Made by a program: the position numbers and the translations under genes. DNA of 64,000 bases from Euglena gracilis (Eukaryota), in NCBI GenBank assembly GCA_039621445.1, contig CP154954.1, positions 48,215,847 through 48,279,846 on the forward strand, written 5' to 3'. Under the pieces are notes generated by a model. That model was not told the origin of the DNA. It saw only the letters and a list, made by a program, of their open reading frames with translations, and did no database searches. This document shows, piece by piece, positions 1 to 56,400 of the stretch (its first letter is position 1; every line of letters starts with the position of its first letter).

Positions 1-71
1 TCAATTTAAAAACACCGATGGAAGCCAAATGCATCGGGTCAAACGTCGACCCAGTGTTGGTTGAGAACGAC

Positions 72-1524
72 CAAGCACCTCTGGTCAGCCATGCCCTTGG
101 GCCCAGCATCGCGCAGCATCGCCCAGCATCGCCCAGCATCGCCTTTGGAGCCCTTGAAGGTGTACCTATAATGCCTGTTGCTTTTGCCGCTCTAGCCCAC
201 TTTTGGTTACTTTTGGCCATCTTTGGTTGCTTTTTGACCACTTTGACCACTTTTGACTGCTTTTTGCCCACATTGACCACTTTTGACTGCTTTTTGACCA
301 CTGTTGCCCACATTTGCTGCCTTTTGACCAATTTTGACTGCTTCTTGACCACTTTTGCTGCTTTTTGCCCACCTTTGCCCATTTCCAACCACCTTTGCAG
401 CTTTTTTGATCACTTTTGATGCTTTTTGACCACTTTGGGCCCCTTTTGCCTGCTTTTTGACCACTTTTGACAACTTTTGTTGCTTTTCAACCACTTTTGC
501 CCACGTTTGCTACTTTTTGCCCACTTTTGGCCATTGTTGCTGCTTTTTGATCACTTTCACTTTTTTTTTACCCACTTTTGCTGCTTTTGACCACTTTTGC
601 CCACTTTTTTACCACTTTTGCAGCTTTCTGGCCACTTTTACCCCACTTTTGCCTGCTTTTTGACCACTTTTTGACCACTTTTGCTGCTTTTGCCGGAGGA
701 TGTGGTGCAGGCCTGTGAGATGGCAACATCGAGTGCAAGTTGCAAGCCTCTTGCCGGTCAGACAAACAAAATCCAAAACAGTTGTTGTGCTGGAGGGTGG
801 AGGGTGGCACCCCATCTTGTCCATCTGCATCTTGTCCAGTATCTGCATCTTGTCCAGTATCTGCATCTTGTCCATCAACTGCATCTTGTCCACCATCTGC
901 ATGTTGTCCAGTGTCTGCATCCAGTTCATCTTGTCCAGCATCGGCATCTTGTCCAGTATCTGCATCTTCTCCGGCATCTGCATCTTGTCCAGCATCGGCA
1001 TCTTGTCCAGCATCTGCGCCTTGTCCATTATCTGTCCAGTATTCATCCGTTGGCTGCTGACCAAGCCAAAATAACCACAAAAGCCCAAAAAATGGCCACA
1101 AAAAGCCCAAAATTGACCGCAAAAGGCCCCAAAAAGCAACCAAAATAACCAAAAATTGCCCAAAAACGCCAACAATGTCCACAAAAGATTGTGAAAAATG
1201 ACCCAAAATCACCGCAAAAAGGCGCAAAATGGCCAAAAATGCCATAAAATCTGCTCAAAAAGGCCCCAATTAGCCCAATATTTGCCAAAGCAGCGATAAA
1301 TAGCCCCCCAAATTTGCAAAAAATTGACCCATTATGGCCAAAAAGGGTGTAAAACTGGAGCTTTGTGGGAAAATTGACCAAAAATAGTTCAATTCTCCAA
1401 AATATACAAAAAAAATGCTAGCATCCCCCAGCATCGCCTAGCATCGCCCAGCATCGGAACCCCACCTCTGGTCTCCAAAAATCCAGCATCGCCCAGCATC
1501 GCCCAGCATCATCAGAGGTGCTTG
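72..1524. mobile_element. hAT-like MITE, family A (CAAGCACCTCTG TIR)
   Basis: 12-bp TIR CAAGCACCTCTG...CAGAGGTGCTTG. Perfect 8-bp TSD AGAACGAC (64-71 and 1525-1532). Internal CCCAGCATCG, TTTTGACCAC and 18-bp repeats. Confidence 0.9.
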
Positions 1525-53400: not shown

Positions 53401-56400
53401 TGCCTGACCCCGTCCAGCCCGTGGGCCTGCAGGAACGCCAGCGTGCTGCCCAGGAACTGCCGCCGCTTCTTCGGGCTGTGGGAGGAGAGGGAGGTTGGGG
53501 GGGGCAGGGGGGCCGGTGGCCTGGGCGCCAAAACCACAAAGGAGCGGGGGGGGGGGGGTTGGGGCCGGCTGGGCACAGTGCGACGAGGGGCCCAGCAAGC
53601 AACGTCCACCTGCTCGACCCTGCCAATGGGTGGGTCTGCAGCTGGGGCGTGGAGCCGTTTGGAAGCCACTGCGTCAGACAGCCGGGAATGCACACGTCTT
53701 GTTGAGTCACACAATTTTTTTGTCAATTTCAGGGAAAATGCATCTGCATATCCATTTTCTCCCGGAGGAGGCAGACCCCGACAAAATGTGAGACAAGTGA
53801 CAAGACAGGTGCTCTCATGAGCACCGGCACAGAATAATTTGGGTGTGTGTCCAATGGCGGGATCCCCTGCGGTGCAGGGTCGGAGGTCCCACAGCACAAC
53901 CCGGACCGGACCCCGGCACACCTGCGGAAGAGGGCGGGGATGTGGGCCCCCCGGCCGCCGCCCCCCACGGAGACCAGCAGCCGCAGCCCGCGGTGCCGTG
54001 CCTTGGCCGCTGCGGCGGCGGTGAGGTGGGCGGGCGGCAGCCGGCCGGCGTCCAGCACCCCGGAGGCGTGCGGCTCCACCGAGAAGAGGACGAGGTCTGT
54101 GGCGGGCGGGCCTTTCCCGGGAGGAGGTGGTGGGCGAAAAAAACGCCGGAAACTGTTTGGCTGTTTTCTTCAACTTTGTGGCCATTTTTTTTTCCTGGAC
54201 CTGGGAATGGACCCCCCTGGGGGGTAATGACTATCTGGTTTTCCAAAAAAAAGCTACTAGTTTTTGGAAGACCGGAGTGACCCCTCAAGCTGGAACGGGG
54301 GGTTCAAGCCAAACCCAGACATTTCCTCTGAGAATACCAGTCGGTCACTTCAGGGGGTCGGCCAATGACTAAATAATTGTATGGGGGAACCCCATGGCGT
54401 GCCGGTGCGGGCGAGAGGGCCGTGGGCAACCGCGTCGGGTGGGGGAAAAGAAGTCCAGTTGTACAAGCGGCACAACGAGCGGAAACGGGGGGGGGGTAAA
54501 GATATGTGTTTCTGGACATCGGTGAGCAGCAGCAACAAGCAGCACACACAGAACATACACACACATACAAACATTTGTTCCCTATCATATTTGTCATGGA
54601 CTTTGCATGACAAAAAAAATCAGTTTTCCTTCCTTCCTCCCTTCTTTCTTTCTTTCAAAAAAAAACAAATTCCCAGGTCACACACAAAATATCTGCCTGT
54701 CAAAAGAGGATGCAAGCTTTCATTCGTTGTCTGTGAGCGTGTGTGTTGCGTGTTGTGAGTGTTGTGAGCGAGCGAGCGAGCGAGCGAGTGAGTGAGTGAG
54801 TGAGTGAGTGAGTGAGTGAGTGAGCGAGCGAGTCTGATGAAGTGTGTCTGCCACACACCGCTGACAAGTCCGGCCACACGATCGAGACGACGTCCCGGAG
54901 CCCAGTCCTCCACTGCCGTTGGCAGGCCGCTGCTCACCAAGCCCCCCCCCCCCCGAAAATTGGCTTCGGCCAAATTCGTGGGTATGGAAGGGGAGGCCAA
55001 CCCCCCTAAGAGGCCTAATTGGCGAGTGAGGGCAGGAAAGACAAACCTTCAGGGGGTGTGATTACGTACCCTTGTTGACCCAAAGGGCCTCGGCCCTGCT
55101 GCCATCCCCTGGGCCTCCCTCAAAGCATCGCCCTGCGTCCCAGGCGGTACTCAGGCAGATAACCCACGACGGCGAAGGGGCTGACCGCCCCGGTGGGACT
55201 GGGGCCTGAGACAGGGAAGGAATGTGCCCCCAGGCTGTCGGATTGCGAGGGACGCACGAGGAAATACCAAACCTCAAATAATATAACGGTGAAATCATTG
55301 GAGTATCTGAAATCAAGAGCCGCGTTGTGTTATAAAGGTACATTGTCTGAGGAAAATTATCTGGCTCAAAAGACTCCAAATGAAAACTTTTGGCATTTAT
55401 TTCCGATTTTTAAGGTTCTGACACTTTATTTGACGTTGAAAACTGGTTCAATCTTTCTTGAGGCAGGGGGTATGTTGTTTGGGTGGCCTATGTACAGGAG
55501 GTACATTATCTGGGGATATTGCTTGAGGATATTTGGGGGCTGTACCAATATTATCCTGTGGAGCAAGTTACATCAGATGCCAACCCCTCCAATGGCGGAG
55601 GTTTGGGACACACTATATGTGCCTCAATTGCAAATTTATCATTGCCTCTCAAGCCAGGGAAGATGCAATATGCTCTGAAAATGACATCGTCACAGAATTA
55701 TCAGCACCCAGTTATCAAGGTGCATTGCTGTTAATTTTATGCTTCAAACATCAGAGATTATGCCGCATGTTCTGAAAATCGCATAATCGCAGCAAAACCG
55801 GTGAAGGTTGTTTGCTTGAAATTTTCCCTTCAAAACCAGAATGTTTTGTTTCCGAAAAAAAACAACACGGAAAACCACAGAACAGCCCAAAAATCATATG
55901 GAATGTGGGTCCCTAGCACGTTGTTGTGAAAGAACCTACCAAAGTATCGGGACATTGTCTGCGTCGGCATGCTGTTCCAGACACAAATGCATTGTACCGC
56001 AATCCTGCCAAAATAACCAAGGATGGCATATGACGCAGCTGAAGCAAACAAAAATGGGGTAGGCCCTGTGGTCCTGGGAAGCCAAACAGCTCAGTTTCGT
56101 AATGTTTGCTCCCAATCTGGAAGAGGCACTGAACCTTCCAAAGCGTTCTTCGTCTAGAATGTGCCTGTGTGCGCATTCCCTTCATTTGTGTGCAGATGTG
56201 CATGATGGCCAAAATAGACTGCACGAAACAAGTGCATTCCCGGCCGTCTAAGACTACGGGGTGCCTCCCTCGTTGCAAAGTTTTTTTTTAAAAATCATTA
56301 TCATTAATGTGGTTTCTCTCCGAGGTTGTATGCCTCTTGCACTGCACTTCCACTGCATGCATTGTTCGTGGAGGAGGTGCACTGCTGGAAGGATTATATG

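What the first reader, a model, noticed from the sequence alone, without database searches (positions are those of the whole stretch)
64..53414. Window-wide system: CAG/CAA-TIR, 8-bp-TSD MITE families occur both as ordinary insertions and as exon-splitting introns
Seen: about ten elements with perfect or 7/8 TSDs (72-1524, 4892-5134, 16108-16423, 20684-21201, 26929-27773, 30939-32072, 37780-38210, 43146-43426, 45005-45305, 52345-53406). Relatives with CAAGCACC/CAGGCACC termini sit in intergenic DNA, inside other introns and directly in coding sequence. Inference: the nonconventional splicing pathway acts as a general tolerance mechanism for hAT insertions. Because the signal is an inverted repeat, it should work in either orientation, allowing ongoing intron gain from several families.
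Basis: partly seen in the sequence, partly recalled or inferred. Interest (0 to 1): 0.85.

Follow-up and report, generated by a model that had tools for sequence, protein, structure and literature searches.

The report
Euglena mini-transposons, one splitting an exon
This stretch of euglenid DNA is peppered with small cut-and-paste transposon relics, and one young copy sits inside the catalytic-site codons of a chitinase-like gene with exactly the end signals that Euglena's second, unconventional splicing system needs to remove it without a scar.

Summary
All ten listed elements are real. Each has terminal inverted repeats and an 8-bp flanking duplication: 7 perfect, 3 at 7/8. A blind scan found 10 perfect duplications, against 0-2 in slid registers and a mean of 0.15 in shuffles.

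One element, 52345-53406, splits the DGxDxDWE codons of a minus-strand GH18 gene. Removing the element plus 8 bases restores a gapless match to homologues. On the sense strand it reads N3-CAG, 13-bp stem, CTG-N5, then a purine. That is the published Euglena nonconventional-intron code (PMC12501133).

At least six other elements lie inside introns or gene spans of the GH18, Gar1 and histidine-kinase genes. The rest have no gene evidence.

Three limits apply:
- Splicing of the exon-splitting copy was not seen, because RNA cover there was too thin.
- Only 1 of 14 elements splits an exon.
- The four CAA...TTG elements do not fit the published code.

The hAT assignment rests on the 8-bp duplication and a target bias; no transposase was found. 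A MITE origin of these introns has been hypothesised in print since 2013. This scan has already reported the same link on other DNA of this genome.

The parts
72..1524 (+). Family A MITE-like element, 1453 bp. Termini CAAGCACCTCTG...CAGAGGTGCTTG; duplication AGAACGAC at 64-71 and 1525-1532. Full of internal tandem repeats. No gene evidence around it.
4892..5134 (+). Family B MITE, 243 bp. Ends CATGCTTGTGCTTA / CAGGCTTGTGCTTA; duplication GGCTGGAC. Context unknown.
14061..14767 (+). New candidate MITE, 707 bp. TIR CAGGGCAGAA 10/10; duplication GGTGGCGG 8/8. Lies within the span of the histidine-kinase gene.
16108..16423 (+). MITE, 316 bp. CAGGCT termini; duplication 7/8. Lies within the span of the histidine-kinase gene.
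19628..20064 (+). New candidate MITE, 437 bp. CATGGATGT termini; duplication GGGAGAAG 8/8. Nested in the kinase intron between the G1-box exon (ends about 20131) and the G2-box exon (about 19112).
20684..21201 (+). Family A' MITE, 518 bp. CAAGCACC termini; duplication GTGACAAT. Lies in the 3.3-kb gap between the exons holding HATPase_c profile positions 1-27 and 36-63.
26929..27773 (+). Family A' MITE, 845 bp. Its 5' 70 bp are 87% identical to 20684-21201; duplication 7/8. Context unknown (upstream of the kinase H-box exon).
30939..32072 (+). Family A MITE, 1134 bp. CAAGCACCTCTG termini 12/12; duplication GTCCGGAC. Context unknown.
35728..36196 (+). New candidate MITE, 469 bp. CAGAC termini 8/10; duplication GTTCATGT 8/8. 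Context unknown.
37780..38210 (+). Family C MITE, 431 bp. CAGGGAGTTT termini; duplication 7/8. Context unknown.
43146..43426 (+). Family C MITE, 281 bp. CAGGGGTTTTTT 12/12; duplication CCCCCAAC. About 1 kb downstream of the Gar1 stop codon.
45005..45305 (+). Family B MITE, 301 bp. Duplication GTCACTGT; 5' end decayed to CCTG. Nested in the conventional GT-AG intron of Gar1 (about 45741 down to 44706, minus strand).
48571..48990 (+). New candidate MITE, 420 bp. CAGGCTTTTGCTTA / CAAGCTTCTGCTTA; duplication 7/8. Nested in the last predicted GT-AG intron of the GH18 gene (49247 down to 48052). A 100-bp relative lies at 51724-51817 in another GH18 intron.
52345..53406 (-). Exon-splitting MITE, 1062 bp. 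Termini CAGGCACCTATGG 13/13; duplication ACCCCGTC at 52337-52344 and 53407-53414, which reads GACGGGGT = Asp-Gly-Val on the sense strand. Subterminal GGTCGGCCCT repeats at both ends. An internal family A 3' terminus at 53188-53208 makes it composite. Predicted nonconventional intron 53409 down to 52340.
47944..56975 (-). GH18 (chitinase-like) gene, about 11 exons. The first three introns are seen in RNA; the remaining junctions are placed by a homologue profile.
54918..55138 (-). RNA-verified nonconventional intron, 221 nt. Sense strand reads ACG-CAGGGCG...CGGCCTG-CCAAC, then G. No flanking repeat is left (1/8).
44463..46348 (-). Gar1 gene. The region 46196-46348 encodes a Gly/Lys-rich stretch read as the N-terminal tail, with no Pfam hit and no junction traced. 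The next exon ends at 45742, followed by a GT-AG intron. The last exon runs 44705-44463.
12304..25496 (-). Hybrid histidine-kinase gene (partial map). H-box about 25151; HATPase_c 1-27 at 23698-23823; 36-63 at 20131-20340; G2 box about 19112; receiver domain at about 13085-12888 and 12462-12304.

Best explanation
The window is euglenid nuclear DNA. Earlier scan notes call it Euglena gracilis; I did not name it independently. It carries at least 13 insertions of several families of non-autonomous cut-and-paste transposons that make 8-bp target duplications (hAT-like). Most lie in introns or in DNA with no gene evidence.

One young copy, 52345-53406, landed in the codons of the GH18 catalytic motif. 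Its ends are CAG...CTG with a 13-bp perfect inverted repeat, and it is flanked by an 8-bp direct repeat. The pre-mRNA therefore presents the published nonconventional-intron signature N3-CAG / stem / CTG-N5 | purine. Cutting 3 nt before the stem and 5 nt after it removes the element plus one copy of the duplication. That is 1070 nt, and it restores the pre-insertion reading frame.

What is shown: the anatomy, its statistics, the family relations, the coding context, the frame restoration, and one RNA-verified nonconventional intron of the same geometry in the same gene.

What is inferred: that this copy is actually spliced, that the transposase is of the hAT type, and that such events are the general source of nonconventional introns.
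For: Anatomy and statistics: (10 perfect duplications in register, against 0-2 slid and 0.15 in shuffles).

Family relations. 72-1524 and 30939-32072 match over the 5' 63 bp at 94% and the 3' 460 bp at 79%. 52345-53406 shares about 225 bp at 84-85% with both. 4892-5134 and 45005-45305 match at 84-88%. 20684-21201 and 26929-27773 match at 87% over the 5' 70 bp.

Copy number: the DNA run shows word depth of 317,000-566,000 over the element against about 45-50 in unique flanks. This is a rough measure, but it indicates a very high-copy family.

Coding context:
- Of 13 homologues at E<=0.01, 12 carry PF00704.
- They map colinearly on the minus strand.
- A profile built from ten of them places positions 28-299 in order on nine exon pieces.
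- With the element plus 8 bp removed, the exon gives 24.1 bits, gapless, over profile positions 116-153. The two halves alone give 1.3 and 7.4 bits. Removing the element alone gives 6.7, element +7 gives 0.1, and element +9 gives 2.7.
- tblastn alignments run through the junction only after excision: P0003 residues 109-144, E 0.006, against 129-144, E 0.64.
- The full model is 340 aa and scores 301.6 bits. With the element retained, the frame stops after 213 aa.
- Homologue P0016 reads AQLDGVDYDWEG without interruption at this site.
- Public protein P0018 (112 aa) is identical to the model's N-terminus.

Code compliance on the sense strand: GGT-CAG..CTG-GACGG, then G; stem 13/13. No GT-AG register exists among the 9 slidable positions (direct reading of the sequence). 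Terminal duplex energy is -25.5 kcal/mol, and a fold with that stem forced lies 6.4 kcal/mol above a -384 MFE.

Same gene: joints 54917|55139 (nonconventional, N3-CAG..CTG-N5|G), 54096|54859 and 55204|56832 (GT-AG) appear in two contig sets that are probably RNA, and in 1 to 5 raw RNA reads per joint. None appears in the DNA run.

Published experiments (PMC12501133, sections read): natural and fully synthetic introns carrying only this signature are spliced when knocked into an E. gracilis exon. The donor spacer must be 3 nt and the acceptor spacer 5 (6 tolerated).

Target bias: T at position 2 or A at position 7 fills 13 of 28 sites (P 0.0065). This fits the hAT target consensus nTnnnnAn, which I recall from memory rather than from a call.
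Against: - No joint across the element was listed in the RNA runs. Mean depth in the bins beside the element was below 1, and 8 joints were not shown, so splicing of this copy is unobserved.
- The insertion is young (perfect ends). An intact rest-of-gene therefore does not prove that the gene still works.
- The global MFE fold of the 1086-nt stretch does not pair the termini.
- The element is 1 kb long and composite. The introns tested in the paper's synthetic assays were 50 bp.
- Only 1 of 14 elements splits recognisable coding sequence. 0 of 66 flank half-frames of the other 13 elements gave a credible Pfam hit, though this is weak negative evidence for short exons.
- 8 of the 14 elements lack an intact CDG..CH'G pair.
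- No transposase domain appeared among the 150 longest frames, and no genome was available to search.
Confidence: 0.72

Rival explanations
1. The insertion at 52345-53406 is simply a recent knock-out of the GH18 gene, or of one allele. It is not spliced, or is spliced poorly, and the gene is on its way to becoming a pseudogene.
For: No RNA joint over the element was listed. Perfect ends show a young insertion, so the otherwise open frame proves little. The public protein fragment P0018 stops 5' of the element. The gene is weakly expressed, with exon depths of about 3-27.
Against: Every sequence rule that the published knock-in work found necessary is met, and together they sufficed in 50-bp synthetic introns: motif, 3/5 spacers, purine, stem (PMC12501133). 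The small non-zero depth in the bins holding only a few exon bases next to the element (0.95 and 0.37) is about what exon-only cover at the neighbouring exons' depth would give. That is an inference, not an observation.
Confidence: 0.2
2. The direction is the reverse. Nonconventional introns are the primary mobile entity, for example excised circles re-inserting through RNA. The free-standing copies and their 8-bp repeats would then be products of that process rather than of a DNA transposase.
For: PMC11282704 and PMC12621601 (passages) state that excised nonconventional introns are circular RNAs. No transposase was found here. The repeat length equals the 3+5 splice offset.
Against: The elements have subterminal direct repeats and nested or composite structures typical of DNA transposons. 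Four elements with perfect or 7/8 duplications have CAA..TTG ends that the splicing code rejects, so they could not have been excised as introns. The target-site bias matches a transposase-type palindromic preference.
Confidence: 0.06
3. The inverted-repeat-plus-direct-repeat structures are chance products of a repeat-rich, GC-rich sequence.
For: Slid-register controls still give 4-10 pairs at >=7/8. Some scan hits (8402-11296, 9847-11482, 34229-34505, 41018-42544, 42414-44890) look like chance or low complexity.
Against: There are 10 perfect duplications in register, against 0-2 slid and 0.15 in shuffles. Elements share sequence in families. The repeat depth in the DNA run is very large.
Confidence: 0.02

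Closest known systems
Euglenid nonconventional introns (splicing code 5'-N3CDG-/-CH'GN5-6|R; Nomura et al. 2025, PMC12501133; Milanowski et al. 2014, PMC3935182)
   Same: No GT-AG ends. CAG at +4..+6 and CTG at -8..-6. An inverted-repeat stem brings the ends together. A purine starts the next exon. Direct repeats at the junctions make the intron 'slidable'. One intron of this kind (54918-55138) is seen spliced in this same gene.
   Different: The exon-splitting copy is a member of a very high-copy repeat family with free-standing relatives and a perfect 8-bp duplication. In the passages and sections I read, the papers propose a MITE origin only as a hypothesis. PMC12501133 set slidable introns aside when deriving the code. 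Splicing of this copy is not yet shown.
hAT-superfamily MITEs (8-bp target duplication, short CAG/TAG-type terminal inverted repeats)
   Same: 8-bp duplications. 8-13-bp terminal repeats starting CAG/CAA. Subterminal direct repeats. Enrichment of T at position 2 and A at position 7 of the target.
   Different: No transposase is known for them. Other superfamilies also make 8-bp duplications (P, and from memory Zisupton and Novosib). The terminal consensus match is recalled, not tested.
Introner elements of Micromonas, dinoflagellates, fungi and others; MITE-derived non-canonical introns of Fritillaria borealis (reviewed in PMC11282704)
   Same: DNA transposons with inverted ends and target duplications become introns on insertion. 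The duplication supplies part of the splice geometry.
   Different: Those are removed by the (sometimes modified) spliceosome, using GT/AG-like sites carried by the element or created in a 3-5-bp duplication. Here removal would go by the stem-dependent pathway that PMC11282704 and PMC12621601 (passages) describe as yielding circular RNA. The whole 8-bp duplication is accounted for by fixed 3-nt and 5-nt offsets.
Maize Ds spliced from transcripts (Giroux et al. 1994; seen only in the reference list of PMC3935182)
   Same: A hAT-family non-autonomous element inside an exon is removed at the RNA level.
   Different: In that case splicing is spliceosomal and imprecise (recalled). Here excision is predicted to be exact.

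Membership tests
Euglenid nonconventional intron (for 52345-53406) | No GT/GC-AG boundaries in any register allowed by the junction repeat | tested here: met
   The sense strand reads GACGGGGT-CAGG...CCTG-GACGGGGT. The only GT start (register 6) ends in GG, not AG (direct reading).
Euglenid nonconventional intron (for 52345-53406) | C-D-G at +4..+6 and the complementary C-H-G at -8..-6, i.e. 3-nt and 5-nt spacers | tested here: met
   GGT|CAG ... CTG|GACGG
Euglenid nonconventional intron (for 52345-53406) | Base pairing beyond the CAG/CTG | tested here: met
   13/13 perfect stem; duplex energy -25.5 kcal/mol. The forced-stem fold lies 6.4 kcal/mol above the MFE. The global MFE itself does not use this stem.
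Euglenid nonconventional intron (for 52345-53406) | Purine as first base of the downstream exon | tested here: met
   G
Euglenid nonconventional intron (for 52345-53406) | Absent from mature mRNA, with exons joined exactly | tested here: inconclusive
   No joint listed. Mean depth in the bins beside the element was below 1, and 8 joints were not shown. Exact removal restores the homologous frame.
Euglenid nonconventional intron (for 52345-53406) | Excised as circular RNA | not testable with these tools
   The element is a high-copy repeat, so back-joints could not be assigned to this copy.
hAT-superfamily MITE | 8-bp target-site duplication | tested here: met
   10 perfect 8-bp repeats in register against 0-2 in controls
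hAT-superfamily MITE | Short terminal inverted repeats; non-coding; multi-copy | tested here: met
   TIRs of 8-13 bp. No protein domains in the elements. In-window relatives. Very high DNA depth.
hAT-superfamily MITE | Target preference nTnnnnAn (recalled consensus) | tested here: met
   13 of 28 positions, P 0.0065; 10 of 14 duplications have T2 or A7. The sample is small and the consensus is from memory.
hAT-superfamily MITE | Autonomous partner with the same termini encoding a hAT transposase | not testable with these tools
   No genome is held for this window. No transposase domain among the 150 longest frames. Earlier scan notes list none.
Introner (spliceosomal transposon-derived intron) | GT/GC-AG splice sites supplied by the element and/or the duplication, with spliceosomal removal | tested here: not met
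   No GT-AG register is available. It works like an introner but is not one in the strict sense.

The most novel reading that the evidence does not exclude
The nonconventional splicing machinery of euglenids is tuned to the footprint of 8-bp-duplication transposons. It measures 3 nt before and 5 nt after a CAG...CTG-closed hairpin. Any such element is therefore 'born' as a scarless intron in either orientation whenever position 6 of its duplication is a purine on the sense strand. On this reading, living MITE families, thousands of copies strong, keep creating introns today. The 69% of 'slidable' nonconventional introns reported for E. agilis would be their decaying duplications. Families with CAA ends would be one mutation away from, or have just lost, that ability.
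Probability: 0.45. Interest if true: 0.85.

Novelty: new member of a known kind. Interest (0 to 1): 0.6.

Why it matters
The origin of euglenid nonconventional introns has been an open question for some thirty years. A MITE origin has been proposed repeatedly (PMC3935182 in 2013; PMC11282704 in 2024; PMC12501133 and PMC12621601 in 2025). In the passages I read it is always a hypothesis, and no actual transposon family is named.

This window holds a young, intact copy of a high-copy family sitting in catalytic-site codons. It has free-standing and intron-nested relatives nearby. Its 8-bp duplication equals the experimentally fixed 3+5 spacers. Together these turn the hypothesis into concrete tests: does this copy splice, does an intergenic copy splice when moved into an exon in both orientations, and does a CAA-to-CAG change confer splicing?

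It also gives a practical caution. Only part of the elements fit the code, so the pathway is a filter on which insertions are tolerated, not a blanket tolerance device.

Tried and rejected
Genome-wide copy counts, empty sites and a transposase search were therefore impossible.
- Rfam on the window: 0 matches.
- The look-up of sequencing runs: no listed holder is on record as RNA. Runs X1-X19 are only guessed to be RNA.
It showed three upstream introns but listed no joint over the element.
- The search for homologous proteins with exon 4 and with the kinase G1-box exon: nothing at E<=0.01.
- The search of protein representatives: found P0018, which is identical to the model but ends 5' of the element, so it gives no junction evidence.
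- Pfam on 150 long frames, on 114 minus-strand frames from 43.8-57.2 kb and on 66 flank half-frames of the other 13 elements. Only Gar1 and the GH18 C-terminal exon hit credibly. The split motif halves are too short for Pfam.
- Frame-restoration test for all elements. Long open frames span several excision sites (16108, 37780, 45005, 35728), but their translations are Gly/Pro/Arg-rich or microsatellite-derived, and I rejected them as coding evidence.
- A crude codon-usage score trained on 452 codons served only to spot the histidine-kinase exons.
- Global MFE folds were uninformative for a 1-kb intron.
- Rejected scan hits: 8402-11296, 9847-11482, 13246-13356, 34229-34505, 41018-42544 and 42414-44890. 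They have poor or low-complexity termini and no relatives. The pair 61991-62235 has shared termini but no duplication.
- Literature searches for a published demonstration. None was found in the library. Subscription papers, for example Guminska 2021 in J Mol Biol, and the SI of PMC12501133 were not seen.

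
Full report
**What the window is.** It is a eukaryotic stretch of about 52% GC with many microsatellites and short exons. No genome is held for it. Earlier notes of this scan call the genome Euglena gracilis. I did not name the organism independently.

**Observation.** All ten listed elements have inverted termini directly flanked by an 8-bp direct repeat: 7 perfect and 3 at 7/8. I ran a blind scan for CA...TG-ended pairs with TIR >=8/10, duplication >=7/8 and length 40-3000, with tandem repeats masked. 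It returned 19 hits. These included 9 of the 10 listed elements; 45005-45305 starts CC and was filtered out. It also found four further credible candidates: 14061-14767, 19628-20064, 35728-36196 and 48571-48990.

Among 5,242 TIR pairs, 10 have a perfect duplication in register. When the left flank is slid by 1-10 bases the count is 0-2. For >=7/8 the counts are 19 against 4-10. Twenty locally shuffled windows gave a mean of 0.15 perfect (max 1) and 1.45 at >=7/8 (max 4). The perfect-duplication elements are therefore not chance. Individual 7/8 hits without relatives may be, and I dropped six scan hits on that ground; they are listed under Tried and rejected.

**Families.**
- Family A: 72-1524 and 30939-32072, with CAAGCACCTCTG ends. 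There is a 3' fragment at 29434-29551.
- Family A': 20684-21201 and 26929-27773.
- 52345-53406 has CAGGCACCTATGG ends. It shares about 225 bp at 84-85% with both A copies and holds an A-type 3' terminus internally at 53188-53208, so it is composite. It also has GGTCGGCCCT subterminal repeats at both ends.
- Family B: 4892-5134 and 45005-45305 (84-88%). There is weaker similarity to 16108-16423, to 48571-48990 at the termini, and to about 60730-60950.
- Family C: 37780-38210 and 43146-43426.

In a DNA run, the 52345-53406 stretch has summed word depth of 317,000-566,000, against about 45-50 in unique flanks. This is a rough measure, but it points to thousands of copies.

**Genes.** Pfam on long frames found only a Gar1 exon and a GH18 C-terminal exon, both on the minus strand.

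*GH18.* RNA-type contigs (X1, X2) and raw RNA reads (X21) show three joints that the DNA run (X20) lacks:
- 55204|56832, GT-AG on the minus strand.
- 54096|54859, also GT-AG.
- 54917|55139, a 221-nt intron reading ACG-CAG...CTG-CCAAC then G on the sense strand. This is nonconventional, and it has no flanking repeat left (1/8).

The joined exons encode MAKPKK...FAVVGYLPEYR.... A 112-aa public protein, P0018, is identical to this N-terminus. Of the homologues fetched with the C-terminal exon, 12 of 13 carry PF00704. They map colinearly. A profile built from ten of them places positions 28-299 on nine ordered pieces from 55197 down to 47944. Profile-guided junctions suggest that the other introns are mostly GT-AG (intron 8 is ambiguous).

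*Gar1.* It has a GT-AG intron from about 45741 to 44706.

*Histidine kinase.* A crude codon score exposed a large minus-strand hybrid histidine kinase. Its H-box is at about 25151. HATPase_c profile positions 1-27 lie at 23698-23823 and positions 36-63 at 20131-20340. The G2 box is at about 19112. The receiver domain lies at about 13085-12304. One of its introns is best read as GT-AG.

**Where the elements sit.**
- In coding sequence: 52345-53406 only.
- Nested in introns or gene spans:
  - 45005-45305 in the Gar1 intron.
  - 48571-48990 in the last GH18 intron.
  - 19628-20064 and 20684-21201 between mapped kinase exons.
  - 16108-16423 and 14061-14767 inside the kinase span.
- 43146-43426 lies about 1 kb 3' of Gar1.
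- I found no gene evidence for 72-1524, 4892-5134, 26929-27773, 30939-32072, 35728-36196 or 37780-38210.

For the 13 elements outside coding sequence, 0 of 66 flank half-frames gave a credible Pfam hit. The open frames that span some excision sites are compositional.

**The exon-splitting copy.** On the sense (minus) strand the duplication reads GACGGGGT, which is Asp-Gly-Val. The upstream exon ends ...FLQAHGL, and the downstream part continues DFDWEGQ....
- Removing the element plus 8 bp gives ...AHGLDGVDFDWEG..., a 24.1-bit gapless match to profile positions 116-153.
- The halves alone score 1.3 and 7.4 bits. Removing the element only gives 6.7, element +7 gives 0.1, and element +9 gives 2.7.
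- tblastn alignments cross the junction only after excision.
- The close homologue P0016 reads AQLDGVDYDWEG uninterrupted.
- The full model is 340 aa at 301.6 bits. With the element retained, the frame stops after 213 aa.

The sense-strand signature is GGT-CAG, a 13-bp perfect stem, CTG-GACGG, then G. No GT-AG register is available. The terminal duplex energy is -25.5 kcal/mol, and a fold with the stem forced is 6.4 kcal/mol above the -384 MFE. The unconstrained MFE does not use the stem.

**Link to published work.** PMC12501133 (abstract; sections 7, 8, 10 and 11; passages of section 5 and the discussion) defines 5'-N3CDG-/-CH'GN5-6|R by knock-ins in E. gracilis.
- The donor spacer must be exactly 3 nt.
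- The acceptor spacer is 5 nt, with 6 tolerated.
- Each single substitution tested within CAG or CTG abolishes splicing.
- Pairing beyond the motif is needed.
- 50-bp synthetic introns with only these features splice.

An element ending CAG...CTG with an 8-bp duplication meets the 3+5 geometry automatically, and excision is then scarless. The same paper set aside 'slidable' introns, those with junction direct repeats, which make up 69.1% of nonconventional introns. It mentions MITE-like elements only as a possible source. PMC3935182, PMC11282704, PMC11170887 and PMC12621601 (passages) say the same, as a hypothesis. The 2024 review already notes CAG/CTG at +4..6 and -8..-6 and 'TSD-like' repeats. 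Six searches found no paper that names actual families, the 8-bp = 3+5 identity, or free-standing relatives. Supplements and subscription papers were not seen.

- Only 6 of the 14 elements have an intact CAG..CTG pair.
- The four CAA..TTG elements and the CAT/CCT-ended ones fail the published code. In this window, none of those lies in recognisable coding sequence.
- The purine rule further requires position 6 of the duplication to be A or G on the sense strand. 4 of the 6 compliant elements satisfy it on both strands.
- Orientation independence follows from the symmetry of the signal but is untested.
- The hAT label rests on the duplication length, short CAG/CAA termini, subterminal repeats and a target bias: T2/A7 at 13 of 28 sites, P 0.0065. 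The consensus itself is recalled from memory. No transposase was found or could be sought.

**What is missing.** Direct proof that 52345-53406 is spliced. The single read-laying run listed no joint there. Mean depth in the bins beside the element was below 1, and 8 joints were not displayed. The small depth in the two bins that hold only 24 and 8 exon bases next to the element is about what exon-only cover would give. That is my inference, not a result.

**Verdict.** The window adds a clean, young, exon-splitting member, with relatives nearby, to a kind of intron whose transposon origin is already hypothesised in print. This scan has reported the same link before on other DNA of the same genome.

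Noticed in passing
window 5356-5959: A 302-bp unit is repeated in perfect tandem: 5356-5657 equals 5658-5959 at 100% identity. This is either a very recent duplication or an assembly artefact.
   Followed up: no
window 38974-40016: A (CA)n microsatellite about 1 kb long, with an A71 run inside. Shorter CA/GT arrays sit inside several introns (44717-44831, 45444-45547, 51957-52108). They blocked read laying.
   Followed up: no
window 44463-44600 and 46196-46348 (minus): The Gar1 tails are Gly-Lys repeats (GKGKGK...) rather than the Arg-Gly-Gly repeats usual for Gar1. The usual form is recalled from memory.
   Followed up: no
window 53188-53208 within 52345-53406: The exon-splitting element contains an internal family A 3' terminus (..CAGAGGTGCTTG). 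RNA reads from other copies diverge at fixed internal points, for example after 53133 into ..CATAGGTGCTTG plus a constant flank, 19 reads. The family therefore has shorter, transcribed variants elsewhere.
   Followed up: partly
window 30788-30875: An 88-bp mini-element with CAGGCTTCTTTTTA at both ends, the same terminus as the 3' end of 16108-16423, and a 6/8 flanking repeat. The same termini at 61991-62235 have no flanking repeat.
   Followed up: partly
window 50270-50890: An array of roughly 69-bp tandem units at 80-92% identity inside the predicted GH18 intron 7.
   Followed up: no
window 12304-25496 (minus): A hybrid histidine kinase with receiver domain is spread over more than 13 kb in many short exons. 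Word-based homologue search with its G1-box exon found nothing.
   Followed up: partly
window 52301-53452, RNA-type runs X1/X2: The element family is very abundant in the RNA-type contig sets, with depth in the thousands against 27 or less for the neighbouring exons. This could reflect retained or excised intron RNA, or DNA in those libraries.
   Followed up: no
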